Source of the DNA: Mytilus edulis
Taxonomy: Eukaryota
DNA: 64,000 bases
Direction of reading: 5' to 3'
NCBI RefSeq assembly: GCF_963676685.1
Contig: NC_092347.1
Span: forward strand, 11,036,001 to 11,100,000
Below are positions 37,186-64,000 of the stretch, one piece after another; positions within the stretch are counted from its first letter, which is position 1, and each line of letters begins with the position of its first letter. A program made the translations under genes and the position numbers. The notes under the pieces were generated by a model that was given only the letters and a program-made list of their open reading frames with translations, was not told the origin of the DNA and did not search any database.

Positions 37186-37787
37186 AACCCGTTTATGTAT
37201 TGTTTTGTGGTCTTATTCAACTTTACGTTGTCAATTTTGCAATGCCATAATCGGTTTCCCTTCCACTTGTATGTTTGTTTTAAATGTCACAACGTTATCT
37301 TCTAACTCTCTTTCACATAAATATGCACAAAATGTATAGGTCTTATTAAAAGCAACGTGCATTTACTCGACAACATACGTTATCCTTATTATTTTCTAGT
37401 TCATTAATTTTCTAATTACCTTTATTTGATTTCCTGTGAATTTTTTTTTTATCTATGCACCAGTATAAATTATATCAAACCATATCCCATATATTAAGCG
37501 TTGTTATATAACAATGTTCATGAATGTTTAAATTTATAAATAATTTAAACTGTCTATGACCTTGCCTACGATGATGGTTTTCCAAATGTTACCATTGAAC
37601 AGACCATATATATACAATGCATACAATAGATAAAAAAATTAAAAAAATGTTTTGGAATTCCAGCGTGATTGATCCTGTTGCTACTACCTACATGTCTTTC
37701 GTCCCTAAATAAGTCACTCGTAGAGGTTTTGCATCAGAGAATGATTTAGATCATGTTGAAACACTCATCGTATTTTTGTATTTCTAG

Positions 37788-40700: not shown

Positions 40701-43359
40701 GAAAGTATCGCTAGTGATAACCGTTATGTTAGCAATGTCTGTTTTCCAGCTTCTTGTAGCGGATAAACTTCCTCCGTCAGCTGAAGCAACACCATGGATC
40801 GGTTAGTATTGTATTATAGCCATGATAAAATATGTGTCATTTAAAAATACATATTTACGGTTTACATAACGAACACATGAAATATTTACATATATACAGA
40901 AAGTAAATAATTAATAATTTCGATAGGACTGTTTGGCTTTTGTTTAGCATTTTTAATTATTTAAATAGAGACGGAATATGAATTGTCGGGTTAGAACAAA
41001 AGCAATATCACGTATACATTATAAAATCAAAAGTTATGTATTTTTTTGGCAATTGAAATATAAAAAAAAAGAAATTTGTCTAAGAAAACTTACACGACGA
41101 ATCTCGGAACTAGTTAACGGGTTTGTCTAAAGTAAGAGTGCTCGCGTGTTTTCTCTATATTAAAGCACAGGTCATCTTTCAACACGTATAGGTGGAATTA
41201 ATAATGTCATCTGTTAAATATTAACCCTATTTATGTTTTGTTCAAGTGATTTTCTTCAACTTTATTCTTGGATTATCTGGCGTGTCAACCATACTCCAGG
41301 GAGTTGTAATCAATGTGTTCTATCGTGGTCAAAAAGACATTCCAAACTGGCTAATGAAGGGCGTGATAACACCCGCATGTCTTATAACGTTTGTTACTCT
41401 ACCCGGCGTGGAAAGAACCAACTGCTGTGCGAAAAAGGTATTTCTTTTTTTTTCTCATTTGAATTGTATCATGGACAGGATAATGAATAATTGATTTTTA
41501 GCTTAGATTTCTAACGACCGTTGCCTTAATAGCTTTTGGCGGGAAAATAAATAAAAGGTCTTGGATCTAGACATTAGTATGATATTTCTCTTGCGATAAT
41601 TTCGAAAGAATAATTGACAAAACTGTATTCTGATACAGTCAGGGAATAGTGGCTATTTTATTTCAAACAGTGAAAGAATTAAAAAGTAAGCTACGATCCT
41701 ATATTAATACTGACTGTGGTTTTTTTTTTTATATCTTTTTAAAATATATTGATAGATTAAAAAAAAACTATCAAAAATAAACTTCATCCTCCGGATCGTT
41801 TTATATATTCGCCTGCAACTTTAATGTTACTCAAACCTTGTAAAGTTTCTTCAGACATTTGTAATTCGGGTGTTTTAACATCGGATGAACATGAGGGTAT
41901 TCTGTAGTATCGTTGCCTCAGACATTTCTACACACGCGGTTTTCGTTTTTGACTGGTAACCGTATAATTATGCAGATATTATCGAGTGCAATTTACATTC
42001 TTGTCGCTTGTTAATATTTTTGATTTCATCAATAAATATTTATGAAAATAATTTTTAAGAACATAGAAAAATGAAATGAAAATATATAAAAATTTATCAT
42101 GAGAAATATATAATAGCATATTAAAAAAACCGAAAAGTTGTGTTAACACATGCGGAAGAATATCTCAAGAACCTTTGCAACTAACGTGGGAAAATATGAA
42201 TGCCTACTCAAATCTAACCAAAAGAGTGTCCACCATGCACTTGCACTGCACTGTCATTAGCATAGTAGAATAGAATGATATACAAATGGATGAAAATTAT
42301 ATATAACTGTCATACAAATATTAATTTAATTTATAAAAACAAACAAGAGTATACTGATAAAACATTATCATATCACTACAATATAATAGTTATTACGGTG
42401 AGGTAGAATTCCCTGTAATTTATAATTCATCATCCACACAGGAACTTGTATCGGAAAAAAAATATATCTATGGTACCTTAACCTAACTTTCGGGTATAAG
42501 AGATGTAATTTTTTTCTGAGACAAGCGACTGGGACTATCCACCAGAACATGCGGTCATTCGATGTTCAGTACTTCAGCACTTTGATTGTTGGCAATAGAC
42601 GTCATTGTCAGTTAAAATTTACTATCTACTTTGCCTTTTTTTTTTGGCGTATTTGTAAGATTTATTTGTATGTGTGTTTGAATTTCTTAGATAGTTGTCA
42701 ATTGTGTTGTATGTTGTCACAGTTTTGGCTACTGGAACAAATTTATCGTCACATCAACCTATTATGTCTGTTTGGGTTGCTCACCCAGTTTTGTCAATAA
42801 AACAAACGATACATCAATGCCATACAAGTGGGACGTTTAGCTAGCTATAAAACCAGATTAACCCCACCATTTTTCTTAAGAAAATGTCAATATCAAAATG
42901 AATACCTCATTTGTGTTGTTACTTATTCCATTGCTTGATAGGTGAGCGTTTTATTTTGTCACTTTTTGTGGACTCTCCCTTTTTTTTTTATTGGATTTGG
43001 AGTTTGATATTTTTGTTTTACCTTTTTGGCTATGCAAAGTTTTAAAATTAGTGTTTATTCTGCATTACAACACTAAAGAAGATATCGACAGACTGGACTG
43101 TTCAAACAAATCGAAACTAACAATAAGCAGTGACCCAAAATACTGCAAAATAGCTTTACCTTGTTTTTTTTTTATTTTTTAGGATGATGTCGAAAAAATG
43201 ACTAAAGGAAAACTGGAAACAGAAACTTCTGACAATGCTACAATATGGAAATGTTTTTCAAACGCTATAGATAGACTTGGACTAGCAGCATTATCCTCGA
43301 CCTTGATGATTGGTTGTATTGTTGTATTCGGAAACATCACAAACGCGGAGTCTGAATGA
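37788..43359 (+). CDS. nAChR alpha-type subunit, cluster gene 3 (signal-peptide exon not confidently located upstream)
   Basis: Exons 37788-37930 (YDSSLRPVC), 38914-38958, 39484-39593, 40266-40801 (CPIDVANFPFDSQKC, YYGCCPEPY, GEKVSLVIT), 41247-41437, 43183-43359 (WKCFSNAIDR, TGA). No stops or frameshifts in these exons. Confidence 0.92.
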
Positions 43360-44644: not shown

Positions 44645-47600
44645 TTATTCTGTATTCATACGCACAAAAATATGGGCTGTACCACTAATCAAAACAAGAA
44701 CAAACAAGCCAAAGCCTAATCTGTCAAGTATGACAGACAGGTACATCCATAGGTCAGGGTCATTTGGTTCCATCGTTATGTCGTCTGATGGCGATTTACG
44801 ACCAGTCATTCCATGGAATAGTTTTACCAGCTGTGTATCCTTAAAGAAAAATATGAATAATCATGTTATTGTATTTTTCAATATCGTTACTAAGTGATTT
44901 GTTCAGTGCTTATATTAGCGTTGATCACTGAATATGTTCTGAAGCAAGAAAAGAAAATCACGGTAGAACTCTTTTAAGTTATCTTCCTTGTAATGAATTA
45001 CAAACTATGTCAATCTGCAATGGAGTTTATATCCTATGATATACAAATATTATACATCTTGACTAAATAAAAAATAATTGTAATAAATATTTTACTATAA
45101 CTATCTTGTCTTCATTATGCTAACTTCTTCAGATTCCATATTGCAATTGATTCCACGTAGAAATGATACTCACTGCTTCCACTCACTCTGTCCAACTTTT
45201 GTCGTAATTTTGTGTTTTCAGATTAAATGTTTTAAAACAAATGAAGTGATCTCGAATACCAAGGAACTATACGGGCTTCCGCAAATATCTGATTTTATTC
45301 ATTTCAAAAATCAAAAAAAGGACACTTAAATTGCTTCCACTACTGATAATGTAAAAAAAAAAACACCAAACAAGTGTTCAATTCTATATAATTTAATTTT
45401 GGATGTAACGCGTCTTCTGATTCTGACGTTATTTTGTTATCAGCCCATAGACATAATTTAGTCATGTGATCGTGACGTCATTAACGTTTTTTTATGGTTT
45501 TCTACGGTTTAAAATGGAATTTAGAATTAAATTCGAAATAACATAAAAAAATGTGGTGCACACTGTTAAATAACCCACTACGCGCGTTATTCAGTGTGCA
45601 CCAATTTTTTTTTATGTAATTTCTTCGTAGACAGAAAAAATATTGCAGTCATTCCTTAAATAAATACATACTGAACACTTGTTAGAGATAAAAAAAAAAG
45701 AAAAAAGAAAAAAAGAAAGAAAACAACAAATAACAACTAAAAAACACTTACTGGTTTAGATTTACAGATATGGTTTTTCATTCCTGGTATTGGAACCAGC
45801 GTTAAAACTGACAGAGGCTGTAAGATATAATACTTGATCGTCTTTGGCATTTTGTTGTGTCCTTTATAATAAACATTCAAAACCAAGACCTGCATTAGAG
45901 TTGATCCACCACTTAATACAAGTGTAAATTTCAGGAACGTTGCTGAAACAAAGGGAAAACATTGCTTTGAAAGTTAAAAGTATAAACCATGAACTGTATT
46001 TGGCATTTTTAGATTTTTTTTTATTGGAGCGTCACTGATGAGTCGTTTGCATACGAAACGTGTGTCTATCTTACATAATTTTAAACCTTATATATATATA
46101 TTTAAGAGCCCAGGTGGTCGTGTGGTCTAGCGGGACGGCAGCAGTGCAGGCGATTTGGTGTCACGATATCACAGTAGCATGGGTTCGAATCCCGGCGAGG
46201 GAAGAACCAAAAATTTGCGAAAGCAAATTTACAGATCTAACATTGTTGGGTTGATGTTTAGACGAGGAGTATTATATATTATATATATATAGAGATATGA
46301 TGAGTCTATTTACACACTTTAATCACGAATTAACATAATGGTTAAAATAAATATTCTTTCTTAAAGAATGTTGAAGATTATGTATAAACAAAAAAATATA
46401 TAAAATAGTCTCTTGTCAGTCTTTTAGAATGAATGTTTGTAATGTTATATTTCACTTAGAGACTTTATTTAAATATTTTGTACTTTCTGCTTTTGATTGT
46501 CTTGTCATATACAATAAAATTACACACACAAAGCTCACATATACAGTTGACAATAAAGTCAGCAAGCTTGTCACTTTGTGTGGCCTTGGCAGGCAGGTTT
46601 TCATTTGACAGAGGAAGCCGAGCCTAGGACGTTAAATCAGCACAAAAGAAAAAAAAAAGAACTACATACATATCAAAGGTTCAACGTCAGCAGAAGGTGG
46701 TAATTTCTCAGCAACCAACATCTGAAAAACGGAAATGGTCAACATAACAGTCAGTTGTAATCCTATTTTCTCTCCAGAGTCAACCGGAAGTATAAACCCT
46801 AAAATGGCAATAGACGTAACCAGCATTGACGGGATGATAATGTTTATTACATAACCGGTTGGTTTCCTTTTCATATAAACATAAACAGTCACATCCGGGT
46901 ACGGTTCTGGGCAACATCCATAAATAACTTCATGGCGGACGATTTCACCTTTAGTGATAGTCCACTCTGCGTTTTCTTTAGTTTGGGACAGGTCCACCTT
47001 ACCAACCAGTGATGTGACATCGATTTCGAATCCATTATGAACCCATGAACCAAATGTTAACGTGCATATTTGTGAATCAAAAGGAAATCGAGACACATCC
47101 AACTGACAAAATGTTTCTAGTTTTGTGGGAAACGTATATTTCACAGTACCATCGCTATGAATTATAGCTCTGTAATCAAGCAATCCAAAAAACTCCTCAG
47201 CAACACTGAAAAATACAACATTTTACATTGCAATCTAAGTGTATAAGTAAGAGAACACAAGTAACATTTCTAGATATCCAATTAGTTTAACAAGCTAATT
47301 TCTTTTTTGAGGTTGGAAAATTTTTTCACGTTTGCAATCGGCTTATCTACAGAGTTGGCAGTATCATGAACATAATTTTTATACACTGTTGGCATTAATG
47401 ACGAAATGCGTTTGATATAATTGGAATGCAACTTAAGATACTATTAGTATTCTCATTTTATAAATTTAAGTAATAATTGTAAAAAAAAAAAAGCAAGTTT
47501 AAGTAGAAAAAAGATACGTACCTTTCATACAGGGTGATATCTGGCATCCACACAGATTCTATGGGTAAAATAATTTTATTTGTACCGTTATAGTCTGTTA

Positions 47601-50600
47601 CGTTCCAAACCAAATTACAGTCAAACCAGCCCTGTGTGAATGATGAAGGTTGTGTAGTAAATACATGTATTAATTAAAATGAAGAGGTTTAATTTGCATT
47701 TAAGTCAATAATGGAAATAATATAAATGATTAAAAAAAGGAAACACATCAGACAGGCTTATTTGTTTTATATGGTTGCTCTTTGTTATTTTGCTGTTTCT
47801 TTTTTCACTATCTATCTACTGCTCAGAAAAACAATTATATAGTTACCCATCGCATCCATGCACTGAGTACTAATATTTGTTCTGGTTCGTCCTACAACAA
47901 AGAAAACAATAAAGGTAGAGCTATTATAGTTTTGCCTTTCGTGAAATTACAATGTACACAGGTAAGCGAGACTGGGCAATTTTTTGTTTGCTCCGTGTTG
48001 AAGCACTGTGACTTTGATATGACGAAAAGCAATAAAAGCGCTGTTCCTTTGCTTTTTGTGCTATATCCTTTTTTTTATTATGTAATTGATATTAGAATAC
48101 CACACCTGGCTATTGCAAGTGTATCATTCTCAAGAGTTGAATAATCATGTACTGGTAATTCATTTTGCCTGGTCATCAAATTTAAATTTGGTACTGGCTA
48201 TTTCCGACAATCCAAACAATGTAAATTATGAATAATATTCCTTCTTAACTTTGCTTCTGGTTGTTTTGTTAGCATCATTTCCAGAGGTAAGTTTATTATT
48301 TTTATAAATAAATTATGTATGAAAACATGCAATACTTCTACGACAGAATATAAAAGTTCTAAAAACCTTCTAAGGTAAAGAAGGGGGGGGGGGGCGATTG
48401 AACGCTCATATTATACCCTACCACATTCGTTTTGTGCATGTCCCATTTATCAAGAGTCTGTATCTCAGTGGATATTGTTGGTTCCTGTATTTGTTTTTTT
48501 ATTTGCTTTCAACATACTAGTATTAAGAACGTTTTAAAAATAGCTTATTGTATGGTATTGAACATTAACTTACCAAATTGATCAGCTGACGTATTACCAT
48601 GTCTATGGTAACAGTGACCTTATCTGACCCTTCACAGTATGGAATCACGCTTGATTCATAGTTGTCTCCGATATCAAGTGACAAATTTGTATAACCGGCG
48701 TCCATACCTACATAAAGACATTTAGTAATTTAATTTTTAAATTGTGTTTCCGAATTGCATTTTTGGGGTTAACCTTCATCAAAAACACTCACATATAATA
48801 AATAAATGCAACCTTGGATTCGTAATTATTTGCTACTTGAGGTCCAACTTTGCCTGAATGATAAAATTTTGTGCTTCCTATATTTGTCGATGGCTAAACA
48901 AGAGTAGGATTTGAGAAATTGAAGAAATTGTATGCATAAATAAATAGTTTGCTCTGTTCGCTTTATTTTTTGGGGATAAATGTTCGAGATTGTACAGATT
49001 CATGTTATAATGATATGAGCAAAACAGAAGCATAAAAGCTAAATATTGTGAACGTCACATTGGGTTGTTGCAAAATTTAATTTTGAGGAAAACACTGTTT
49101 TTATAAACCGAAAATTTTCGATCGAAATACACTATTAAAATCGCGCAGGGCCTCTTTTTACACAAAAATCTTACAATAATATCGATCGTAAGTTATACTA
49201 AACATTTTACTACTTTCGAGTATATTTTTCGCGTAATTTTTTTGTGAAATGTGGCCAATACCTCCAGACTGATAGTCTAACAGCATAGATTCTGATTCGA
49301 CAATCATTGATGCATGAACATTAACAGTCCCGTTCCCGAGAAAATTTACCTCACACTAAAATACGATTAATTTACCTCGGAAATTAAACGAAGCTTGATC
49401 TTCTGTTTCATTGTCTTCTAGATTTACACTGTTATTTGAATTCATTCGAGTGGTTGTCATTGGAGCAGTTGACGTCAAATACGTAGACGTTTTGACATCA
49501 GTTGTATACGTAGACGTTTTGGCATCAGTTGAAGTTTCAGTCGTCATGCAAGAATTTGTCGAAGTATTTTCATCGGCTGTTGATAATGCTGCAAGAAAGG
49601 TAAATTATATCCTAATAAAATTTGTCACCCCTTTTGTTGGTCTTTTGACACTCAACTAAAATACAACCAACTACCTCGACACTATCCCAGACAATAAAGA
49701 AAGCATTAGGACTCCCCATGAGAGGCGGCATACAAACTACCCTATCTTGGATCCCAGGTCAGAGTTTTATAGCCGGGAACAAACTAGCGGACCTATTAGC
49801 AAAAGATGCATCACAGAAGGCCCCAAGTCTTCAGGACCAGTACAACGTCATAACAATGTCAGATGTGAAAAGTGCAGTTAAGATGTCAACAAAACTTAAA
49901 TGGCAAATTAGATGGACTAGAAGTGAAACTGGGAGACAACTACATGAATTAGTTCCTATATTGTAGGTAAGACCCATCCACTTAATTATCAAAATCCAGT
50001 TATAAGGAAAACCAGGACAATTTATAACAGGCTACAATAAAATAAATAAATACCGCCATCAGATAGGCCAATCCCTTACGCCATACTTCGAGTGTGGTGA
50101 AGAAGAAAGCACAGAACACTTCCTACTTAATCGTACGAGATAACACCAGGAAAGAGAAGAAATAAAAAGACAGCTGGAGAAACAAAACATCACAATAGAA
50201 CTTCAGATCTCCTTCATGCCACCAACAAAGACAGAGAGATACGAAAGAACAGCGGGTATAATAAGAGTGTTTAAAAGAGTTCAGGGCAATTCTAAGATAC
50301 ATTTAGCCCTAAAGAATTCCAATCCTGCGCCTAAACAAATTAACCTAAGCATAGAGTGTGACATAACTCAGAGAAACTATAGTACCGAGATGAATTAAGC
50401 TAAGTTAAACGCAAAGTCACCAGTTGTGTTAAACTACATGCACATATTGACCTAAGGATTAGAATGAGAATAATAAGGTTAATAGATTTACATATTTTAT
50501 ATTTCATTTTATTTTTATTGTTAGTTCTTTGCCACTAAATTAGAAAAAAAATCAGGAAAGAGCTTTATAATCTCTGACTCTCTCTATTTATATGAAGACT

Positions 50601-53172
50601 ATGCTAGTACGTATGGTGAATTACTTGTACGAGCACTTGTTGTGCTGAAAAATTGTAAATACATGTATAACATTTCCTGTTTTGGGAAATGATGGACATT
50701 GTGACCGTGTATGTTGTACTTTTCCAAGATATTCAAGTATTCTCAATTTCAGTGGAAACGCAGTCAGTCACAAATGTACTTGTGTAGAATGTAGGACAGT
50801 ATGGTTTTGGTTTTGGTTTTCATTTTACTGTAATTCACATAAAGCTGTTCAGAAAACAAATTAAAATGAAGTATCAAATAAGCCGCAAGACATACTAAAA
50901 AAAAATCAATCGTCTTAATATTCGAGAAGGTTAATGGTTGTATTGAGTCATTTTTCATGTTAAGTTTTATTATGAGTTGTCTCTCATATATGGCTCAAAT
51001 ATTCTTATATATATACTAGAACACACCCGTGATATCGCGGGTCTGTGACTGAATTAAAGAATATAACTATGCGTAAGCCTTATTTTAGTATTGGTATTGT
51101 CATTTGATAAAGTCATGCCGATTATAAGTCTAAAGATGCACAGTTTTCTCTGCTTTCACCATCTTTCTTTTTGAACCCGTCGACCTAGAACTTATCAATT
51201 ATTGGTATTATTAATTTTATTTGGAAGACAAAAGGGCCTGGAAAGGAGTATAATTTAATTAACAGCATTGGCCTTTATGAGTTATAAATAAAGTTGAATT
51301 CTTTGATTTGCTGTTTTACGTCATTCCGGCTAACAAATTGAAAACTGTACATGCTGTACCTATACGCCTTATTTTAAGTCCAGATTTTTATTATTCGTAT
51401 TGTCATCTTAGAAAGAGTTTTCTCTGCTTTCACAATCTTTCTTTTTGAACCCGTCGACCTAGAACTTATCAATTATTGGTATTATTAATTTTATTTGGAA
51501 AACAAAAAGGCCTGGAAAGGAGTATTATTTAATTAACAGCATTGCCCTTTATGAGTTATAAATAAAGTTGAGTTCTTTGATTTGCTGTTTTACGTCATTC
51601 CGGCTAACAAATTGAAAACTGTACATGCTGTACCTATACGCCTTATTTCAAGTTAAGTCCAGATTTTTATTATTCGTATTGTCGTCTTAGAAAGTCATAT
51701 TGATTAAAATACTAAAATCGGAAACAATGTAACAATGATCAAATTAAGTAGTGTCAACCCTGTGATGACAAACCGTGAATATAGCAAAATCCAAAGTACA
51801 GCGTTTGGTGGTGCGCCTGTCAGATGCGGAACGTACAGATAAGGTAATAGGTAACAGGTTAATATACTATTGGTATCGGTATCGGATTCGACCCGGAACT
51901 TCTTAATTATTGGCAATATTAATTATGTGGAAAACAAAAGGATCTGGAGTGGTGCAATTTTTAATCAACAGCATTGTACTATATTAGTTATATATAAAGT
52001 TGAATTCTTTGATTCATCGTTTTTACGTGATGACGGCTGACAAATTGGACCTCGTCATTTTAGTATTACTAGAACACACCCGCGAAATCGCGGGCATTCA
52101 GAGCGGAGTTAAAAGTATGTAAAGTGTTGTTAGAAGTTTTATACCTCCTCCTTCATTTCCAAAATTCCCAATTTTTGGTTTTCTATCAATTTCAATATGA
52201 ACATACATTTAGTATGTTATGAACATTTAAGTAAGGAGCCTGTAGTTCAGTGGTTGTCGTTTGTTTGTGTGTTACATATTTGTTTTTCGTTCCTTTTTGT
52301 ACATAAATAAGGCCGCTAGTTTTCTCGTTTGAATTTTTTTACATCGTCATTTCGGGGCCTTTTAAAGCCGAGTATGCGTTATGGGCTTTGCTCGTTGTTG
52401 AAGGCCGTACGGTGACCTATAGTCGTTAATTTCTGTGTCATTTTGGTCTCTTGTGGAGAGTTGTCTCAACATGGCAATCATACCACATCTTTATTTTTGT
52501 AATCAATGAATTTTGTAAAATATTTAATGAATGGAGAGTTTCAGAAGAAGGTATCAAAAGTTCACATGAATAGTTTTAGCGCTTATCTGTATATTACTAT
52601 ATAAATAAAGTGTATTTACTTTCAATTATTAGTTTAGTAATCGATCCATGGTGGTCAATTGACATAGTATACAGACCCTCTCCATTTAATAAACTCTGTA
52701 CAGAATTAAAATACACTTTATTCGTACTATTTGTTTGTTCAAAGTATACAGAAAAACGCAAACCGGAAGTATAATCTGACTTAAAATTTCGTCCAATGAC
52801 GGGACAATATCCGGATGCCTTTTTTCTCGTTTTTCTCCAAAAATAACTCAATCTGAATAATCATATGAATGGATGACAAATGCGACTATGCACTGTACAT
52901 ATAGGACACAGAGTCGTGTTGATTAATTTATTGTGGAAAGAAGAGAAGCGACACCAAAAATGAGGTCTTCTCGTTTAATAGTATAGATAGATATAACGCA
53001 AAAAGTGCTATCCCCTTTGACAACGTTAGAGACTGGATTGGTTTTTTTTCAATTTTCGCCGGCGTATAAAATTATAATAAACTAAAATATGAATTATTAA
53101 ATGTGTATACAAAAAAATCTTACCTTGTAACATCAAAACATAGAAAGCAAGAAAAACTTTTCTCGAAAACAT
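44645..53172 (-). CDS. nAChR alpha-type subunit with Ser/Thr-rich N-terminal extension, cluster gene 4; 8 exons, ~490 aa
   Basis: Exons in transcript order: 53172-53124 (MFSRKVFLAFYVLMLQ), 49588-49376 (S/T-rich, phase 1-1), 48707-48574 (YESSVIPYC), 47891-47847 (DEPEQILVLSAWMRW), 47631-47522 (WFDC..WMPDITLYES), 47205-46670 (CQLDVSRFPFDSQIC, YGCCPEPY, GEKIGLQLT), 45942-45752, 44839-44645 (WMYLSVILDR, TAA). 1473 nt, open throughout. Confidence 0.92.
46027..46072 (+). ncRNA. Type I hammerhead ribozyme motif (retrozyme fragment), intact core with damaged stems
   Basis: GAGCGTCA-CTGATGA-GTC-GTTTGCA-TAC-GAAAC-GTGT-GTC-TATCTT. Flanks resemble the 24051-24528 repeat. Confidence 0.65.
46106..46270 (+). 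mobile_element. tRNA-derived SINE inserted in a (TA)n tract inside the retrozyme fragment
   Basis: A-box-like GGTGGTCGTGTGGTCTAG and B-box GGTTCGAATCCC at ~46182, followed by a non-tRNA body. (TA)n on both sides; retrozyme sequence resumes as ATGATGAGTCTATT near 46297. Confidence 0.75.
49660..50410 (+). mobile_element. 3' fragment of an RNase H-bearing LINE (I/Nimb-like), decayed
   Basis: WIPGQSFIAGNKLADLLAKDA (RNase H C-terminal WxPGH..GNE.AD.LAK motif), WQIRW, and a decayed zinc knuckle (ECGEEESTEHFLL). Contains stops and frameshifts. Confidence 0.8.
51016..52991 (-). mobile_element. Non-autonomous Helitron containing a second nested Helitron (52069-52987)
   Basis: On the minus strand both elements begin TC (TCTA/TAATACTAAAATGACGAG and TCTATACTATTAAACGAG) and end hairpin + GTGTGTTCTAG (CCCGCGATATCACGGG; CCCGCGATTTCGCGGG). 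The inner element sits at an A|T site. Outer element has an internal ~280-bp duplication around 51140-51690. Confidence 0.8.
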
Positions 53173-53428
53173 TGCTTCTTCACAATGAAAAATTATATAA
53201 ACTTGTTTTGTGACCTTTAAGATTTGTAGAGTAATGTTCAACACACACTTTACAGTCAATGTGCCTCAGGTTTAATTGGTTTCTTGGTCAACCTTTGAAC
53301 ATTAGTCAATCAGTTAAAGCTACATATATCATTTCTAAGTCTTGGATTTTAAAAGTACTCGGGACTCACTGGCAAATTTACAACAGGTTCTGAAGTTTGC
53401 AGCGAAATTAAACTGTGACAAACTAACT
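53173..53428. promoter_or_regulatory. Putative bidirectional promoter / 5' UTRs between head-to-head genes 4 and 5
   Basis: Divergent signal-peptide exons start at ATG 53172 (-) and ATG 53429 (+), 256 bp apart, with no recognisable repeat between them. Transcription start sites unknown. Confidence 0.7.
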
Positions 53429-56400
53429 ATGTTTATCAAACAGAATTTGGCAAGCATAGCAATATTGGCGTTTATATTTTTGTTGAAAATCGGTAAGTAA
53501 TAATTATTTGTCATATTTGCAATTTACCTCTTCTGTTATTTTTTAATATTGTATATATAATTTATCTGTCTCATCCGAATGCTCCTACACCGGTTGGAAT
53601 TACGGAAGAAGTCGCCTACTTACTATAAGTGCTGTTCGGTGTGGGCCAAGGCTCCGTGTTGAAAACCGTACATTGACCTATAATGGTTTACTTTTATAAA
53701 TTGTGACTTGGATTGCGAGCTGTCTCATTGGCACTCATACCACATCTTCCTATATTTATGAAAGTCTGTTTTGTTATGCACAGACATTAAGCGTTATAAT
53801 AATTTGTATGCAAATTTTATAGTTTTAATAAACTCATTATAACATTTCTATCAAATTCTCAAAATTTTCAACATATTTATCAAAAATTGCTTTTATATTT
53901 TGTATACTAAAGCAGTTCTGCTTTTGGCTATTTTCAGTTTTTGTTTTGAGCCTGAGACTTCTGTCGCAAAAAGCGAAACTTGAAAGTGATCCGACTGGTT
54001 TAAACACAAGACCTTAACAAAGTTTCCTCTTCCATTATCAAATCTAACAGTAGCTGGTATTTGCAATATCTATTTACAAATTAAAACTATGTTCATCTAA
54101 GATATTTAGAGTTTATGATGTGATAAGCTCCTGACAAGGCCTCTGACAGGATGGTAACATAAAAAAGAAGATGTGGTATGATTGCCAATGATACTGGCCT
54201 TGAACTCTTCTAGTGTAGCTGAAGTTGTGGCTTTTTCCGATAAAGTGCTCCATTCCCTAGTTGATACTGGGGAGAGGTGGTACATGTATCTGTGTTAGTC
54301 TTTGAGAATACGCTGTTGGTGTATGCGATGTCGATACCTTTAATTTGCTGGTGGACTATCATTCTTCTTCTTCTTCTTCTTTAGTTACCGAATACCATCA
54401 ACTTTTTGAGGATTACTTTCTGTAGGCCCGAGGATATCATCAGCCCAGTAGACAGTACTTTGGTACTGCCATGATTTATAACCAACTATCTAAAACTGTC
54501 CGTTTATAGATTTTTAAATTATACAGACACTTCCTCAGGCAAAGTTGGCATCAGATGGATTAAGTTATTTTCTTATGTCCTTTTTTGGTTTATAGCTCTT
54601 CAACATGTTTGGTCCTAATGCATCCTTGGCTTTTAAATATTCGGCTTTGAGTCTTTCTGGTGAAGATAAATTCAGCAAAACGTCTCGAACGCATTGATTA
54701 TAGGTTTTACAGATCTGTTGAAGTGGACTAAGAAAATGTTATCTAATTTTAGATTTAACAGATCAGAAGTTATTGAACAAGGAAAAGAATGATAGAGCAT
54801 CTAAAAGTGACGACTCTTCTACAAACACAGCAAATATCAACGGTACTGTATGATTGACACAAATCACTGTTTAAAGCGTCTATTTCCTCATATATTATTT
54901 ATTCATATAAAAAAGTTTAAGAAAAAGAAGCGTAACAACCTTAAAATATTAATAACGCAATTTTTTATTTGAATAAACAATTACTTTGCTAAATTTTACG
55001 GTAAAATCCTCAATTGACATTGGTCACGTCGACATCAGATGTCTACATACTGAATTGCCTCAATCCACAAATTAATGTTTGATAACATTTGTAATACAGA
55101 AAAATTGAAATAAAACATCACATTTAATAAATAACACATAGCTGAGAGGGTGATATATAGCAGATTGGTACCCCGAGAAAACATTGTCAACCGCGGCAAA
55201 GCCAAGGTTGACAATGCTTTTTCGATCGGTGGCAATCACCCTCTCAGCTATGTGTTATTTAATTTATTATAGTATACTGAATGTCATATAATTATTGTCT
55301 TTTACAGATCAATTTTATTTAAAAGTGTTTTCTATAACGTGAAATATTTACATAACAACGTTACGTCAAATAATAAGATCTGAGCCAAAACGTAGAACTA
55401 GTATTTTTAATTACTTGATGTAAATTCAATTTATCGTCCTTTAAATTACCGATTTTTGATTGGTCTGGACGAGAGGGTAACTAAAAAAATTGTCACCCGC
55501 TCAGCCATGTACATTGTACATTGGAGCAGTAAATTAACATCCTCGTCTTAGCCAATCAAAATATGGCATTTTAATGTGACGTAAAATAAATCCAAATATT
55601 ATCAACAATATACAACAGATTGAGGACGTGGGGATAGTGATCCGGCGGCGGCGGCGGCGGCGTTAGCTGACTTCTTAAAAGGTTTATATTTTAGAAGGTG
55701 AGAGACCTGGATGCTTCATACTTTGTATATAGATGCCTCATGTTACGAAGTTTCCGTCAGTCACATGTCCAATGTCCTTGACCTCATATTCATGGTTCAG
55801 TGACCACTTGAAAAAAAAGTTCAGAATTTTTGTAATGTTGAATTCTCTTATTATAAGTAATAGAATAACTATATTTGGTATGTGCGTACCTTGCAAGGTC
55901 CTCATGCCCGTCAGACAGTTTTCACTTGACCTCGACCTCATTTCATGGATCAGTGAACAAGGTTAAGTTTTGGTGGTCAAGTCCATATCTCAGATACTAT
56001 AAGCATTAGGACTAATATATTTGGTGTATGGAAGGACTGGAAGGTGTACATGTCCAACTGGCAGGTGTCATCTGACCTTGACCTCATTTTCATGGTTCAG
56101 TGGTTATAGTTAAGTTTTTGTGTTTTTGTCTGTTTTTCTCTTACTTTATGCAATAGGTCTACGATATTTGTTGTATGGAATGATTGTAAGGTGTACATGT
56201 CTAGCGGGCAGATGTCATCTGACCTTGACCTCATTTTCATGGTTCAGTGGTCAAAGTTAAGTTTTTAAGTTTTGGTCTTTTTATCTAATATTATATGCCA
56301 AAGGTCAACTATATTTGGTGTATGGAAATATATTATGATCTGGTTTTATTTGACCATGACCTCAATTGCACGGTTCATTGCACAGTGTTAAGTTTTTGTG

Positions 56401-59400
56401 TTTTGGTCTATTTTTCTTAAACTATAAGTAATAGGTCAACTATATTTGTTGTATGGAAGCTTTGTTAGCTGTACATGTCTGCCTGGCATGGTTCATCTGA
56501 CCTTGACCTCATTTTCATGGTTCATTGGTCTTTGTTTAATTAATTAGCTATCTTGGTTAATGTTAAGTTTATGCGACAGTTGTAATAAAGCTTTATACTT
56601 AGGACTATCAACATAATATCAATGATAAGTAAAGAAGGCGAGAATTTCAATTTGTGCACTCTTGTTTTTTTTTGGGAGGGGGTGTACAACAGAAGATAGA
56701 CAAAAGAGACATTAACTTTAAAAAGAAATGAAAATTGAAATATTAAAGATTTATCGATTCTATATAGGCCAATATATTAAGTAAAATGTATCATTATATT
56801 TAATAATTGAATGGCTATTATTTATTTTTGGATTTATTGCTTCGCGGATTATTCAATGTCAAAGTCAAAAAATAATTTTATGGTTTTATTGTCATTCATT
56901 ATAAATAAATTTCGATCAAAAATAAGGCTCAAAGAACTTTTTATATTATTTATTTTAACAATAACAACGTACACACATGTTGGCGTATGAATACACAACG
57001 TCAGAGTGGGCGTGTCGCCATAAAAATTGACAACATTGAAAATAAAAGTAATACTTTTAACCAATCAGAAGACAGTAAATTCACCAAATTTTTTTATTGT
57101 AGAATTAAGTTTTGTCTCTTTTTCTAAAGTAACATTCTTTCACTTGTCAACATTTGATTATAATTTCAGAAATCATAATATATTATTAACATTTTTCCGA
57201 GAAGTGGAAGTGATTATTTATAGTATAACTAATCGCCGTATTTGAATATCAAAAATAAGACAACGCGTGACCGAACGACGCATGGATTAAACGAGTGCGC
57301 AGCACGAGTTTAATCCATAGCGGCGTTCGGTCACAAGTTGAGTTTAATCCATAGCGGCGTTCGGTCACAAGTTGTCTTATTTTTGATATTCAAATACGGC
57401 GATTAGTCATTCTTTTTATTACATTGGCAAATGGCTTTTTTTTTATGAAATTAATGTAGAAAATGTAAGGAACTATATCTTTTTCCTACGCATTGACAAT
57501 TTGTTTTGATCAGACGTTATCGACGTCTTGACATCGCCTATTGTTGTATGACGTCAGAGAGTGAAATAACCACGTTTATTTCACATGTGAAATTATCGGT
57601 TTTTATTTAACTGGGAAATCAATGTAATTCATTGCAACCAATGTAATAAAACTCCTTCCCAGTCAGTTTCATAATTCAACCAATTCAGAATATTCACTGC
57701 AGTCGGGAAAATTAACTACTGTAACAGTACTGTATAGTATTACTGGCTGACTTCTTAATAACATCATGTCAACAAGTTACAAACAAATATATTATACAGA
57801 ACATAAAAAGGCTTTCATACGTTTATATGGACTTAAACATAAAATTCCATTATTCCAGGTGAGGCCTCTTTGTTAGCAAATTTAACGGCAACAATATTAA
57901 CCAATTATGACCAAGCACTCTTACCGAAATGTACCGGACGGGAGCAAGTACAATTAGAAATAAAAATGGCCGTAAGACAACTCATATTACTCGTAAGTAC
58001 ATTATACATCCTCTTAAAGTTCATAGTTGTTTCAGTATCATCGACTTTATATTCATCAAAATTAGTATTAACTGATGCACCGTTGTAATATTTGCAGAAC
58101 AAAGCAATATTAGATCTATATGGTTATTGGATGAATATTTTGGAATATTGTCCCGAGTAGAATTTTATATTGCACGAGCGCTTGCGAGTGCAATATATGT
58201 TCTACGAGGTACAATATTCCCCAATATTCATGCAATAACCCTTCTATTGTATAGCAATATAATATTTGTAAGTAAAAAATGTTTAAACTAAGAATTTGAC
58301 GTCATGAATTTTGAAGATTTATTGCATTAGAGCAATATCGTAATTTATTGCACGCTAACTTTTGGTTACTTTCTGTGGGAACTAGTGTATGCTATGCAGA
58401 AATAACCGTTTTATTTCTGTTACAAGAAAATACATTGTTAAAAATACAAAATGGACGTGTTTTCTTTATACTATTAACATCCAAGTAATAAGGCTGACAC
58501 TATTTTTAAAAATAGATACGTAAAACATTATCATGGTTAGTACTGAGACAAAGGCGGAGATAACCAGATAGAAAAGGACAAACTAGACATTGGGAAACGT
58601 GAAAAAGACCAACAACAACTCCCAAAATATAACCATAAACAGTTAAGATTGAGGAATACGAACTCATGTTATTCGAACACGAATAGAAACTTTTCCATTA
58701 TTGACATCTGTTGTTTTTCAAGTGCATTAAAACATAAAATAAATGTAGCAACAACAAACGGACTAATCAGTGGTAAAACAGGTATGTCTTCATATCTTTT
58801 TCATGACGAACTCTTCGTTTAAAAAGTAAAATCACAAAAATACCGAACTAAGAGGAAAATCAAATCGGAAAGTCCCTAATCACATGGCAAATAGACTACT
58901 TTCGAGTTCATCCGTCACCGGAAAAATCTCGTCAATTATACGCGCCTTTATGACGTCATTTACCAGATAGAGGGGGTCGCCTGTATCCCTGCACTATTTA
59001 CTTTCATCAAGCGTCTTGGTGATCGTCATTGTGCAGGATAAACTAGAAATAATGGTTGTTCTGTAGGTACTTAATGACAATTCCCTAATGACATCAATGC
59101 TGATTGTCAATTTTGAGAATTCAATTTGTCGTATAATTCGTACAATAGAATTATAGTTTTCCAACCACTCGCTCAACATTGGAATGGAAGTGACGACGCC
59201 CCTAAACGCACAAATGACGTTCACTAAAACCAGAGTTTTTGACGGAAATGCATCGAACTCGAAAGTTGTCTATTCAAATGACAAAACACATAAAAAACGA
59301 ATGGACAAGAATTGTCATATTTTTGACAATATTATAGATTCCTTGTGAGCTGATTGTTTTCGTCAAATGTATTGTGTAAGAGACATTGGCTGCATTTTTA

Positions 59401-62400
59401 ATGTTATTTGATCCCTTTTAATTATTTGTAAAAATCTAATACTATTTCAATGATACTTTGCAGGATGAACCCGAACAAATTGCGAAATTCAATATGTGGA
59501 TGCGCTTGGTAAGTCAAATGTTAGGCTTATTTGTACGTTTGTTTGATTGTTTATGTCTGTTGTGTTGTATGTCTGTAATGTATGTTTACACATCTGTGAC
59601 TGTAGTAAACCAATTATTTCCACATTAACATATAATGTCGGTTTAGCTTGCTTAAACAGTTTAGTCAATATAAGGGAACTATAAATAACTGCCATACAAG
59701 GAGAAGGTTAAGCTACGTAAAACTAGGTTACATCCACCTTTTTCTTTAATACAAGGAGAAGGTTAAGCTACGTAAAACCAGGTTACATCCACCTTTTTCT
59801 TTAATACAAGGAGAAGGTTAAGCTACGTAAAACCAGGTTACATCCTCCTTTTTCTTTAATACAAGGAGAAGGTTAAGCTACGTAAAACCAGGTTACATCC
59901 TCCTTTTTCTTTAATACAAGGAGAAGGTTAAGCTACGTAAAACCAGATTACATCCACCTTTTTCTTTAATACAAGGAGAAGGTTAAGCTACGTAAAACCA
60001 GGTTACATCCTCCTTTTTCTTTAATACAAGGAGAAGGTTAATCTACGTAAAACCAGGTTACATCCTCCTTTTTCTTTAATACAAGGAGAAGGTTAAGCTA
60101 CGTAAAACCAGGTTACATCCTCCTTTTTCTTTAATACAAGGAGAAGGTTAAGCTACGTAAAACCAGATTACATCCACCTTTTTCTTTAATACAAGGAGAA
60201 GGTTAATCTACGTAAAACCAGGTTACATCCTCCTTTTTCTTTAATACAAGGAGAAGGTTAAGCTACGTAAAACCAGGTTACATCCTCCTTTTTCTTTAAT
60301 ACAAGGAGAAGGTTAAGCTACGTAAAACCAGGTTACATCCTCCTTTTTCTTTAATACAAGGAGAAGGTTAAGCTACGTAAAACCAGGTTACATCCTCCTT
60401 TTTCTTTAATACAAGGAGAAGGTTAAGCTACGTAAAACCAGGTTACATCCACCTTTTTCTTTAATACAAGGAGAAGGTTAAGCTACGTAAAACCAGGTTA
60501 CATCCTCCTTTTTCTTTAATACAAGGAGAAGGTTAAGCTACGTAAAACCAGGTTACATCCTCCTTTTTCTTTATCAAATACCCGTACAGAAACAGGAATA
60601 TGACAGTTGTTTTTCACTCGTCGTCCTTTTAAGTTGATTAAGTTTGATTGTAGTAGTTTTATAGACTACTTGTTTTCATGCCCCATTTATGGGCATTATG
60701 TTTTTTGGTTAGTGCGTTCGTTCGTCCGTTCGTTTGTCCGTCTGTCCCGCTTCAGGTTAAAGTTTTTGGTCGAGGTAGTTGAAACTTAGTACAAATGTTC
60801 CCTAAGGTATGATTTTTCCAATTTTAATGCCAAGTTAGAGTTTTTATCCCATTTTTACGGTCCACTGAACATAGAAAATGATAGTGCGGATGGGGCATCC
60901 GTGTACTAGGGACACATTCATGTTTTAATTTACCTAGGAGTTCGTTGTCTTTGTTATAATTTTGCATGACTTTAAGCCTCATCTTGTATTTACAAAATAT
61001 AAATGCATGTGATGAACAAAACAAAGACCACTCTGAAATTAAGTTCACATAACATCTCAAAAGATTAACCCTGACAGCTATGCCTCTTTTTTAAAACTTT
61101 AATGTGGGTTATCATGATCTTATATTTCAAATATTTATCAAACATGATAGAGTAACACACACTACAGATTATAAAACTACACTTCTGAAAATACATAATT
61201 ATACTGATTTCAAGGTATTATCTAGGAACAACACAAAAGCATGTACAATGCAGATATTTAGGTTTATAACGATACGGTGACCTTGCCATTTTTCAGATAT
61301 GGACAGATTGTAGATTATACTGGAATCCTGAGGATTTTGGAAACATCACAGAAGTTGTTTTGCCTTTTGATTTGTTATGGACTCCAGATCTAACCTTATA
61401 CGAAAGGTTTGTTTACTAAGTATATACAATTAGATGCGGAGTATATGTTAATGTATCAAGTCCCAGTCACACTGTCACGTTTCAAGAGCTTCATTTTACT
61501 ATGTTTTGAAAGCGTAAAACGGGAATATACGTAACGAAGCGTATCGAAACGTAGTGATCCTTTGTTCAAAACTGGACCTGCCCCGTATGTTTTGAAAATT
61601 CAACAACAACCGTGCAAAAATTCAAACGAAGTAGAAACCTAGTAAATACGTATCAAAGCTTAGCGGAACGCAACAAAACGTGCTTACTACGTATCGAAAC
61701 GTATCAATGCGTGGTGAAATCGTGGGTCTACACGTACATGTACTAATACGTAGCAAAACGTGATAAGAACGTAGCACAAACCTAGTAAAACCTAGTTTTC
61801 AAAATAACGGGACATGTTTGTTCAAAACGTAGTTGAAACGTAGAATTTTAAAATGTAGTAAAACTTGACAGTTGCCACAGTCACACTCACGTTTCAAGAG
61901 TTACGTTTTACTACGTTCTGAAAGCGTATCGAAACGGGAATATACGTAACGAAGCGTATTGAAACGTAGTGATCCTTAAAATGTTTGTTCAAAACGGGAC
62001 TTGCCCTGTATGTTTTGAAAATTTAACAACAAACGTAAAAAATGTGCCAACTACGTATCGAAAGGTATCAATGCGTGGTGGAAACGTGGTTCTACACGTT
62101 CTTATACGTAGCAAAACGTGGTAAGAATGTAGCACAAACCTAGCTTTCAAAATAACGGGACATTTTTATTCAAAACTTGGTTGAAATGTAGCATTTTAAA
62201 CCGTAGTAGAACGTGACAGTGCGACTGGGGCTTTAACAACCTGACTTAAAACAAAACCAGACAACGGGAAGTCAACGTACGGCCTTAACCAAATGACACA
62301 TTTCATTGATTGTCATTTTTCTTGTTTTTACGATCAAAAGACGTAAAAGAACATCCGTCTATTGTTGGTTACTGTCTTTTGCCTCTAGATATATATACAG

Positions 62401-64000
62401 GTATTGGTTTCTTTTGTCGTTAGAATACTGTCTCATTGACGTATACATACCTCATATTTTCTTTTGTGTGTCTTTAAATTACTTTCTACTCTTTTTAAAA
62501 ATGAAGTGTGCTTTTAAAACAATTTACATGCATCAATCTGACTTTAAAAAGACAGTGAAAGCCAATGGTATGTAACATGCAATTGTTTCATCATAAATTT
62601 CAGTTTCCATGAAAACTATTTCGCGGTCAAACCTTACAGTCCACGATCCACATACTTTGTAATATTAGTTTTCTATTTTTATTTGATTTGGTTTGATTTG
62701 TTTTGTTATTGTTTTTGTTTGTTTACTCGTTGTGTTTTTGTTTGTTAAATGTCACTGCTAGAAGACGAAGCATGTTTCTGTGTTAACAGTTTACATTTTA
62801 TTTTACAGTGTAGCTGAAGAGTTTTATGGCTTTAAAGACTACAGACCTAGAGTAATGTTTGACGGAACAGTATATTATAATTTTCCCACTTTAGTAGAAT
62901 CCGTGTGTCAAGTTGATGCTCTGAAGTTTCCATATGACACTCAAATATGTCTATTAACTTTCGGATCCTGGGTGTTTTCAGGATCGGATCTAGATGTATT
63001 TTCGAGTAAAAAGTTTGCCGATGTTTCGTCTATAAAAGACCACGTGGAATGGGTTGTTGAAAGTGTTCCAATCGTAAGACATGTAGTTTTCTACCCGGAG
63101 CCATATCCTGACGTGACTTTTTACGTTCACATCAGACGAAAGCCAGCGTCATACGTCACTAATATCATAATACCATCACTTTTGATCACTCTCATATCGG
63201 CGCTTGGATTTTTACTTCCGGTTGAATCGGGAGAGAAAGTTGGGCTACAACTGACAGTTATGCTGGCAATATTTGTATTCCAAGTACTTGTAGCAGACCA
63301 ATTACCACCTTCTGCAGATTCTACGCCATGGATATGTAAGAATGCGTAAACTTTTTTTATATACATTTAGATGACGAGACTAAAAAAAGTGTGTATAATG
63401 GGCAAAGTTAAGCTTTGTAGAGCCCAGTATAGTATTTCTGTTTTCGCGACTGCTTCAAAATTATCTTTAACATTTATAGGTGTTTAGCAATTTATTAAAA
63501 CAAGGAAGCGATGTGTCAAATATGTGCAATAATTATAATTTATTTATATCAGCAAATTGCTTTTCATTTTTTCACATTTTTTAATGTTTACTAAGATCCT
63601 ACTTTGAAATGATGAAAATATACAAGCTATATTCTAGAACAGATTTTTTTTCTGGAACATGCTAACCTCTTTTTATAGGTTTGTGAATTAAATTACCATA
63701 TTTCGAATAAATCACAACAAACAAACAGGATCAATTATGTTGTGACATGTGTGGTTACGAGTGCGATCTCTTACCGAACTCTGTTGGTTCAAATATTACG
63801 ATTTGTATTTCAGCTGTCTTCCTGAGTTTCACTCTAATATTATGTGGAGTGGCAAGTCTTCTGCAAGTTCTGGTTATAAGCGTACATTTCCAAGATAAGG
63901 ATATGCCCAACTGGACGAAAAGATATATTCTTTACCCTCTTGCTCTTGTGTCAGGTGTCCAAACTCAAGGTTTACAACGTACTTGTTCTCAAGATGGTCA
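53429..64000 (+). CDS. nAChR non-alpha subunit (loop-C Cys-Cys deleted), cluster gene 5; truncated by the window edge
   Basis: Exons 53429-53492 (MFIKQNLASIAILAFIFLLKI), possible 54753-54842, 57859-57992 (YDQALLPKC), 59464-59508, 61297-61406 (WTDC..WTPDLTLYES), 62809-63335 (527 nt; CQVDALKFPYDTQIC; loop C VVFYPEPY; GEKVGLQLT), 63814->64000 (TM3/MX). Confidence 0.92.
54753..54842 (+). CDS. Candidate extra phase 1-1 exon of gene 5 (polar N-terminal extension DLTDQKLLNKEKNDRASKSDDSSTNTANIN)
   Basis: Acceptor AATTTTAG, donor G|GTACTG, 90 nt, open in the phase required between exon 1 and the 57859 exon. Same position as the extension exon of gene 4. Confidence 0.55.
55625..56665 (+). mobile_element. 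Helentron-associated (HINE-like) element with internal ~146-bp tandem array
   Basis: (GGC)n microsatellite after GGGATAGTGATCC, about six units carrying TGACCTTGACCTCATTTTCATGGTTCAG-like sequence, 3' end GTGCACTCTTG followed by a T-run. Confidence 0.7.
57228..57407. repeat. Long foldback palindrome with a 33-bp internal duplication
   Basis: Left arm ACTAATCGCCGTATTTGAATATCAAAAATAAGACAAC, centre ACGAGTGCGCAGCACGAGT, then a reverse-complement arm. Similar foldbacks at 45535-45623, 55126-55264 and 58122-58240. Confidence 0.85.
58890..59274. mobile_element. MITE with 19-bp imperfect TIR, nested in another interspersed repeat
   Basis: AATAGACTACTTTCGAGTT ... AACTCGAAAGTTGTCTATT. It interrupts the AAAAGTAAAATCACAAAAATAC..CACATGGCAA|TCAAATGAC repeat also seen at ~22200 and ~38000. 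Confidence 0.7.
59695..60573. repeat. 55-bp tandem repeat, 16 near-identical copies, in a gene 5 intron
   Basis: Unit TACAAGGAGAAGGTTAAGCTACGTAAAACCAGGTTACATCCTCCTTTTTCTTTAA starts at 59695, 59750 ... 60520. Confidence 0.97.
60673..60925 (+). mobile_element. Short HINE-like element
   Basis: TTTTCATGCCCCA subterminal repeat matches TGGGGCAT near the 3' end; (CGTT/CGTC)n microsatellite; 3' GTGT..ACAC hairpin and T-run. Confidence 0.6.
61459..62233. mobile_element. Tandem dimer of a ~400-bp MITE (Harbinger-like TIR)
   Basis: CCCAGTCACACTGTCACGTT ... AACGTGACAGTGCGACTGGGG. The unit restarts at ~61880 (GTCACACTCACGTTTCAAGAG) and is rich in ACGTA motifs. Confidence 0.65.

What the first reader, a model, noticed from the sequence alone, without database searches (positions are those of the whole stretch)
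63075..63115. Precise 9-nt deletion removes Gly-Cys-Cys from loop C of gene 5
Seen: this exon is 536 nt in genes 1-4 and 527 nt in gene 5. RHVVFY---PEPYPD aligns with RHVVYYGCCPEPYPD. Both loop-C tyrosines, the loop-A Tyr, loop-B Trp and loop-D Trp are retained. Established: vicinal cysteines define alpha subunits. Inference: an independent origin of a non-alpha subunit from an alpha9/10-like ancestor, or a shortened loop C tuned to a different ligand.
Basis: partly seen in the sequence, partly recalled or inferred. Interest (0 to 1): 0.7.

Follow-up and report, generated by a model that had tools for sequence, protein, structure and literature searches.

The report
Mussel acetylcholine receptor with clipped loop
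A mussel acetylcholine-receptor gene has lost the three-residue tip that normally caps the neurotransmitter pocket but keeps the rest of the pocket and is still expressed; such losses have happened several times in this gene family, so it is a neat natural test case rather than a new kind of receptor.

Summary
Observation confirmed. The exon is 527 nt in gene 5 and 536 nt in genes 1-4, and loop C is three residues short. It is not an artefact: 12 of 12 cluster members, including named proteins of four Mytilus species, carry it, and spliced contigs of 4 of 4 runs show no indel. Selection is still purifying (dN/dS about 0.10-0.21). Gene 5's sister is not gene 4 but an unnamed 76%-identical relative that keeps Gly-Cys-Cys (100/99), so the loss is recent and independent. 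It is not unique: at least 4 separate cysteine-pair losses among 72 relatives, and only 33 of 132 oyster subunits are alpha (PMC6896357). New here: the loop now has beta2/beta4 length, but the pocket stays alpha-like (loop-B Gly, four aromatics, loop-C Asp), and gene 5 lies head-to-head with intact gene 4, start codons 256 bp apart. Best reading (0.4): a cation-channel subunit, probably partnered with gene 4, with a weakened but working agonist site. Rivals: purely structural subunit (0.27), new ligand (0.2). No function was tested.

The parts
63092..63097 (+). Deletion junction in loop C of gene 5: Tyr243 codon directly followed by Pro244 codon; three codons present in genes 1-4 are missing
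63074..63112 (+). Shortened loop C (Val237-Asp249) with Tyr243 (63092-63094), Tyr247 (63104-63106) and Asp249 (63110-63112); identical in 12 of 12 cluster members; 4 listed differences in run X19 are all silent
62809..63335 (+). Gene 5 exon 6, 527 nt: loops E, Cys-loop, B, F, C, then M1, M2 and the M2-M3 linker
62963..62971 (+). Loop B Gly200-Ser201-Trp202: alpha-type Gly, not the Arg that plugs the pocket in beta2 and beta4
63230..63238 (+). Gly-Glu-Lys before M2 (-1' Glu), the cation-type motif
53429..53492 (+). Gene 5 coding exon 1 (start codon, predicted N-terminal hydrophobic helix)
54753..54842 (+). Gene 5 exon 2 (disordered N-terminal extension, pLDDT under 50 for residues 23-51)
57859..57992 (+). 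Gene 5 exon 3
59464..59508 (+). Gene 5 exon 4 with loop D Trp108 (59497-59499) and Arg110 (59503-59505)
61297..61406 (+). Gene 5 exon 5 with loop A Tyr146 (61399-61401)
63814..64000 (+). Gene 5 exon 7 (M3), runs off the window; 385 of 439 residues of P0046 are encoded in the window
53173..53428 (.). 256 bp between the divergent start codons of gene 4 (53172, minus) and gene 5 (53429, plus); candidate shared promoter (inferred)
44648..53172 (-). Gene 4, alpha-type subunit with the cysteine pair intact (large exon 47205-46670); candidate partner
37784..43356 (+). Gene 3 (matched coding span), cysteine pair intact; used as fold control
27146..34119 (+). Gene 2 (matched coding span), cysteine pair intact
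2663..13803 (+). Gene 1 (matched coding span), cysteine pair intact

Best explanation
Gene 5 encodes a working cation-channel subunit of the mytilid alpha9/10-like expansion. After the Mytilus lineage split from the lineage of P0089, an in-frame 9-nt deletion removed the disulphide-bearing flap of loop C (shown). The beta9-beta10 hairpin closes with a tight turn and both tyrosines stay (model only). The pocket is left open-roofed but otherwise alpha-like, so it most likely still binds acetylcholine or a similar small cation at its principal face with lower affinity, and it offers a normal complementary face (inferred). It is probably co-transcribed with gene 4 from the 256-bp divergent promoter and co-assembles with it, giving a heteromer with a right-shifted dose response (inferred).
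For: Fixed, spliced and under purifying selection. Keeps Gly200, Tyr146, Trp202, Tyr243, Tyr247, Asp249, Trp108, Arg110 and the -1' Glu. Beta2 and beta4 instead have an Arg plugging the pocket, and beta3 lacks the first loop-C Tyr and the Asp (PMC9319688). Loop C is identical in four species while its silent sites change, whereas loop tips of the other cysteine-less Mytilus group differ between species. In rat alpha9alpha10, replacing both cysteine pairs leaves a working channel with EC50 18 to 405 uM, while Y190T in both subunits abolishes it (PMC5325082). A muscle receptor loop C of nine glycines and two tyrosines still responds to acetylcholine (PMC3607824). AlphaFold: strands 235-243 and 245-258 with a one-residue turn, against a six-residue loop in the gene 3 control. 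Head-to-head position, and neighbouring accession numbers for genes 4 and 5 in records of four species.
Against: No ligand, assembly or co-expression data were obtained. The published mutants are substitutions or single-residue deletions, not this three-residue deletion, which could move Tyr243 out of the pocket. The fold was predicted from an alignment dominated by intact loops, and only secondary structure and confidence were returned. Beta2 also keeps several principal-face aromatics without binding there, so retention is not proof. Alpo4 keeps key aromatics, lacks the pair and does not respond to acetylcholine (PMC10338036). Loop-B neighbours changed on the gene 5 stem (His/Asn to Ser205, Phe/Leu to Ser207), which fits a changed ligand equally well. 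Divergent neighbours need not co-assemble.
Confidence: 0.4

Rival explanations
1. Purely structural, beta-like subunit: the deletion killed the principal site, and the subunit gives only its complementary face and pore lining to a heteromer with gene 4 or another alpha paralogue.
For: The loop is now three residues shorter than alpha subunits, the length of beta2 and beta4; it spans the same number of residues as Torpedo beta (40 against 40, weak match at E 0.06-0.07). Complementary face Trp108, Arg110, Asn172 intact. An intact alpha gene lies 256 bp away.
Against: None of the known beta-type plugs is present and all principal aromatics are kept in four species. The extracellular part is no more diverged than in paralogues (93% to the M. 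coruscus-type P0004, against 91% for gene 4 and 97% for gene 3).
Confidence: 0.27
2. Receptor for a different ligand (an environmental or bulkier compound): removal of the flap opens the pocket, as proposed for chemotactile receptors and Alpo4.
For: Repeated losses of the pair in this clade with aromatics retained. Several changes at otherwise conserved sites near loop B and the Cys-loop on the gene 5 stem. Precedents in PMC10338036 and PMC13174522.
Against: No burst of change: outside loop C the gene 5 lineage is no longer than its intact sister (0.10 plus 0.03-0.06 against 0.14), and the sister has as many derived changes at conserved sites. The choline-binding aromatic box is complete. Tissue of expression is unknown.
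Confidence: 0.2
3. Nearly neutral loss: the flap was dispensable in a redundant paralogue and the receptor behaves much as its intact sister.
For: The pair is dispensable for gating and partly for binding. It is lost often in this family.
Against: Loss of the pair costs about 20-fold in alpha9alpha10. 79 of 89 distinct close loop-C stretches keep it.
Confidence: 0.12
4. Assembly artefact, rare allele or pseudogene.
For: None found.
Against:: several assemblies, four species, spliced transcripts, open frame, purifying selection.
Confidence: 0.01

Closest known systems
Bivalve alpha9/alpha10-like nAChR expansion (Jiao et al. 2019, PMC6896357; Alpha-A10 clades of MolluscaGenes, PMC13174522)
   Same: Tandem array, same Pfam domains, annotated 'alpha-10-like' or CHRNA10; many members lack the cysteine pair.
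   Different: A clean three-residue deletion with an intact sister group in hand. Databases call it alpha-10-like although it fails the alpha definition. In the passages read, neither paper discusses this gene; their supplements were not seen.
Vertebrate alpha9/alpha10, and the CC/SS mutants of Boffi et al. 2017 (PMC5325082)
   Same: Best structural match of the loop F-C stretch is human alpha9, aligned with a gap at Gly-Cys-Cys; loop D Trp-x-Arg shared.
   Different: Natural deletion rather than substitution; loop three residues shorter; Phe at M2 12' and Val at 16', shared with the intact sister.
Vertebrate beta2, beta4 and muscle beta1
   Same: Same loop C length; no cysteine pair.
   Different: Separate origin; no Arg before loop B; first loop-C Tyr kept.
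Nematode EAT-2 (PMC7173930)
   Same: Non-alpha by motif, aromatic box largely kept, cation channel.
   Different: EAT-2 is a demonstrated homomer needing EAT-18; nothing equivalent is shown for gene 5.
Alvinella Alpo4 and cephalopod chemotactile receptors (PMC10338036; PMC13174522)
   Same: Lophotrochozoan nAChR-like subunits without the pair.
   Different: They are far diverged and insensitive to acetylcholine; gene 5 is 76% identical to an intact alpha subunit over the exon.

Membership tests
Cys-loop cation channel of the nAChR type | Ligand-binding domain, 13-residue Cys-loop, four membrane helices | tested here: met
   PF02931 and PF02932 above cut-off; Cys181 and Cys195 invariant; fold matches nAChR structures, TM 0.72-0.78
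Cys-loop cation channel of the nAChR type | Glu at -1' (GEK) rather than the anion-type PAR motif | tested here: met
   motif meaning from PMC13174522
nAChR alpha subunit | Vicinal cysteines in loop C | tested here: not met
nAChR alpha subunit | Principal-face aromatics (loop A Tyr, loop B Trp, two loop C Tyr), Gly before loop B, Asp after loop C | tested here: met
   sequence level only:
nAChR alpha subunit | Binds acetylcholine at its principal face | not testable with these tools
   needs electrophysiology or binding
Mytilid alpha9/10-like clade | Nests in the clade on a tree built without the loop C columns | tested here: met
   39-row clade at 100/100, sister group at 100/99
Vertebrate-type beta subunits (beta2, beta4) | Loop C three residues shorter than alpha, no cysteine pair | tested here: met
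Vertebrate-type beta subunits (beta2, beta4) | Arg before loop B that blocks the pocket; no first loop-C Tyr | tested here: not met
   Gly200 and Tyr243
Vertebrate-type beta subunits (beta2, beta4) | Descent from the beta clade | tested here: not met
   No beta sequence was in the trees, but the sister group is an intact alpha type at 76% and beta2 scores 191 bits against 317 for the P0089 fragment (different libraries)
Chemotactile or Alpo4-like receptors for non-choline ligands | Insensitive to acetylcholine, remodelled hydrophobic pocket | tested here: inconclusive
   Pocket aromatics are canonical; ligand not testable

The most novel reading that the evidence does not exclude
Gene 4 and gene 5 are a co-transcribed alpha and neo-beta pair: Mytilus has re-invented an alpha/beta heteromeric receptor from alpha9/10-like stock by one 9-nt deletion that lands on the vertebrate beta2/beta4 loop length, with the uncapped but aromatic pocket of gene 5 serving as a second site for a non-acetylcholine, possibly environmental, ligand. 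The intact sister gene makes the step reversible in one experiment.
Probability: 0.15. Interest if true: 0.72.

Novelty: new variant of a known kind. Interest (0 to 1): 0.42.

Why it matters
How non-alpha subunits arise from alpha subunits is known only from very old splits. Here the step is recent, is a single in-frame deletion, and has an intact sister gene at 76% identity and a likely partner next door. Adding back or removing three residues can therefore test directly whether loss of the loop C flap makes a structural subunit, a low-affinity site or a new sensor. It also shows that 'alpha-10-like' database names hide cysteine-less subunits in mussels. The surprise is limited, because such losses are frequent in lophotrochozoan receptors.

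Tried and rejected
No whole genome is held for this window, so the rest of the cluster was read only through protein records. A scan of metagenome contigs for the DNA of the intact relative gave only 2 unrelated loci at 29% identity out of 83 candidate stretches, so the breakpoints could not be fixed at base level. An idea that the deletion runs from inside the Tyr codon into the last Cys codon was dropped: run X19 has a different silent base there. No M. californianus orthologue of gene 5, nor of gene 4, appeared in three searches; I draw no conclusion about loss. Contig depth was not used as an expression level. The Foldseek ranking does not separate alpha from beta chains. No complex prediction was run: a pass would follow from likeness to solved pentamers and could not tell the rivals apart. 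Rows dropped: P0208 left out of the trees because its model lacks loop F to beta9; P0208 and P0124 in the 45-55% bin look like faulty models; the first count of cysteine-less regions used a fixed window, misclassified truncated sequences and was replaced; three 'noCC' labels (P0041, P0039, P0207) were not checked and are not used. Look-ups of earlier scan findings were empty. Literature searches listed no paper on this gene; the library lacks most subscription journals. PMC8634148 (passages) added nothing.

Full report
What the window is. It holds five tandem genes for nicotinic acetylcholine receptor subunits. Stored protein P0046 matches gene 5 exactly over the 385 residues that lie in the window, in seven GT-AG exons; its cluster holds named records of Mytilus galloprovincialis, M. 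edulis and M. trossulus, and a 94% relative clusters with M. coruscus. I take the window to be a blue mussel of the M. edulis type (inference from these names).

The observation. The large exon is 536 nt in genes 1-4 and 527 nt in gene 5, and the protein gap falls after Tyr243. Human alpha9 and alpha7 chains align with a three-residue gap at the same place. The placement on Gly-Cys-Cys is best by one step only (2 further changes against 3), because Phe and Tyr codons are each one base from a Cys codon; the resulting protein is the same.

It is real and fixed. 12 of 12 members of the two gene 5 clusters have the short loop. 20 of 24 listed public runs, from 9 studies and three coded organisms, hold the exon or part of it. 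I laid 4 of them, from 4 studies: none shows an indel, and all join 63335 to 63814 at GT..AG with loose ends matching exon 5, so they are spliced transcripts (two are RNA on record, two by guess; contigs drop rare variants). The most distant contig (X19) differs at 37 bases of the exon, 33 of them listed. Taking P0004 as its protein (inferred from equal contig length), 10 of 175 residues differ and dN/dS lies between 0.10 and 0.21; the four listed differences in loop C are silent.

Origin. The closest relative, P0089 (76% over the exon, 33 members, all from unnamed contigs), keeps Gly-Cys-Cys in 12 of 12 listed members that cover the loop (15 of 33 were listed); it has Phe for the second loop-C Tyr. 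On a 44-row tree built without the loop C columns, the four Mytilus gene 5 rows form a clade (99/97) sister to the P0089 group (100/99) inside a 39-row clade (100/100) that is mostly intact. P0089 is about as far from gene 5 as other unnamed relatives are from genes 1, 3 and 4 (62-74% in the extracellular part), so I read it as the orthologue in another mytilid (inference). Gene 4 is not the sister: that grouping is rejected (AU p=0.0013) and the shared 20-row group is unresolved (87/81). No beta subunit was in the trees. Rows were chosen by me: 113 regions from 410 stored proteins, then 72, then 44.

How unusual. Not very. Among distinct loop C stretches in my hits, 10 of 89 at 55% identity or more to gene 3 lack the pair, 6 of 73 at 45-55% (two probably faulty models) and 22 of 95 at 35-45% (a search-biased set). 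The 72-row tree needs at least 4 changes of state, and one clade for all 11 cysteine-less rows is rejected (p=1.7e-6). One other cysteine-less group has accession numbers next to gene 5 in M. trossulus and lies on the same M. coruscus scaffold, so it probably belongs to the same cluster. Jiao et al. (PMC6896357; passages and section 9 read; supplements not seen) count only 33 alpha types among 132 oyster subunits. MolluscaGenes (PMC13174522; passages; supplements not seen, they may include this sequence) reports clades without the motif. De Gieter et al. (PMC10338036; passages) note losses in Alpo3-like and Alpo4 receptors.

Anatomy of the pocket. Gene 5 keeps Tyr146, Trp202, Tyr243, Tyr247, Asp249, Gly200, Trp108 and Arg110, and the cation-type Gly-Glu-Lys (equivalences from the alignments; the functional meaning of the numbered positions is partly recalled). 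By PMC9319688 (passages) beta3 is two residues shorter than alpha and one longer than beta2 and beta4, so gene 5 now has beta2/beta4 length; but those subunits block the pocket with an Arg where gene 5 has Gly, and beta3 lacks the first Tyr and the Asp. AlphaFold (mean pLDDT 86, 96 for residues 241-250) closes the hairpin with a one-residue turn at Pro244, where the gene 3 control has a six-residue loop. On the gene 5 stem there are also changes at conserved sites beside loop B and in the Cys-loop; the intact sister has a similar number of its own.

What such a loss does elsewhere. Rat alpha9alpha10 with both pairs changed to Ser is functional, EC50 18 to 405 uM, while Y190T in both subunits gives no response (PMC5325082; passages and section 13). 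A muscle loop C of nine Gly and two Tyr still responds to acetylcholine, and all-Gly does not (PMC3607824; passages). Single-residue loop C deletions give active receptors with variable affinity (PMC4621750; passages). [quoted passage not shown] EAT-2 forms a homomeric acetylcholine receptor without the pair (PMC7173930; passages). Against: Alpo4 keeps key aromatics and ignores acetylcholine.

Gene 4 starts at 53172 on the minus strand and gene 5 at 53429 on the plus strand, 256 bp apart. Records of genes 4 and 5 carry neighbouring accession numbers in four species, which suggests conserved adjacency. A shared promoter and co-assembly are inferences; co-expression was not tested.

Mechanism and odds. 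Shown: deletion, fixation, splicing, purifying selection, origin from an intact alpha type, divergent layout. Inferred: a working cation-channel subunit with a weakened principal site, probably partnered with gene 4 (0.4); a purely structural subunit (0.27); a new ligand (0.2); near neutrality (0.12); artefact (0.01).

Verdict. A true, apparently undescribed variant of a known kind. Its value is as a clean natural experiment on the alpha to non-alpha transition. Interest 0.42.

Noticed in passing
window 53173-53428: Genes 4 and 5 are head-to-head with only 256 bp between start codons; candidate bidirectional promoter.
   Followed up: partly
window about 49359-49604 (minus strand), gene 4 exon 2: Gene 4 has a long Thr/Ser-rich N-terminal extension made of short repeats (38% Ser+Thr in P0018; 27-bp tandem unit at 49479-49531) whose length differs between records; possibly mucin-like.
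   Followed up: partly
P0351, P0354, P0355, P0411, P0419 (Mytilus records outside the window): A second cysteine-less group, probably in the same cluster, with Ser for the loop-B Gly and loop tips that vary between species; one lineage has a two-residue deletion. Possibly under diversifying selection.
   Followed up: partly
P0358, P0363, P0348, P0106: Further cysteine-less alpha9/10-like subunits; P0348 groups with gene 1, an independent loss by substitution.
   Followed up: partly
P0089 cluster: The intact sister has Phe for the second loop-C Tyr and an extra Cys four residues before the loop-C His-Glu; it shares with gene 5 a Phe at M2 12' and Val at 16'.
   Followed up: no
window 59694-60573: Intronic tandem array, 16 copies of a 55-bp unit at 98% match, in gene 5 intron 4.
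   Followed up: no
window 36456-37157 (minus strand): A 234-codon open frame between genes 2 and 3, not identified; may be a mobile-element remnant.
   Followed up: no
window 49649-50395 and 1114-1581: Open frames that look like retroelement fragments by eye (recalled resemblance, not tested).
   Followed up: no
M. californianus records: No orthologue of gene 4 or gene 5 turned up in three searches, although gene 3 and the neighbouring cysteine-less genes did.
   Followed up: partly
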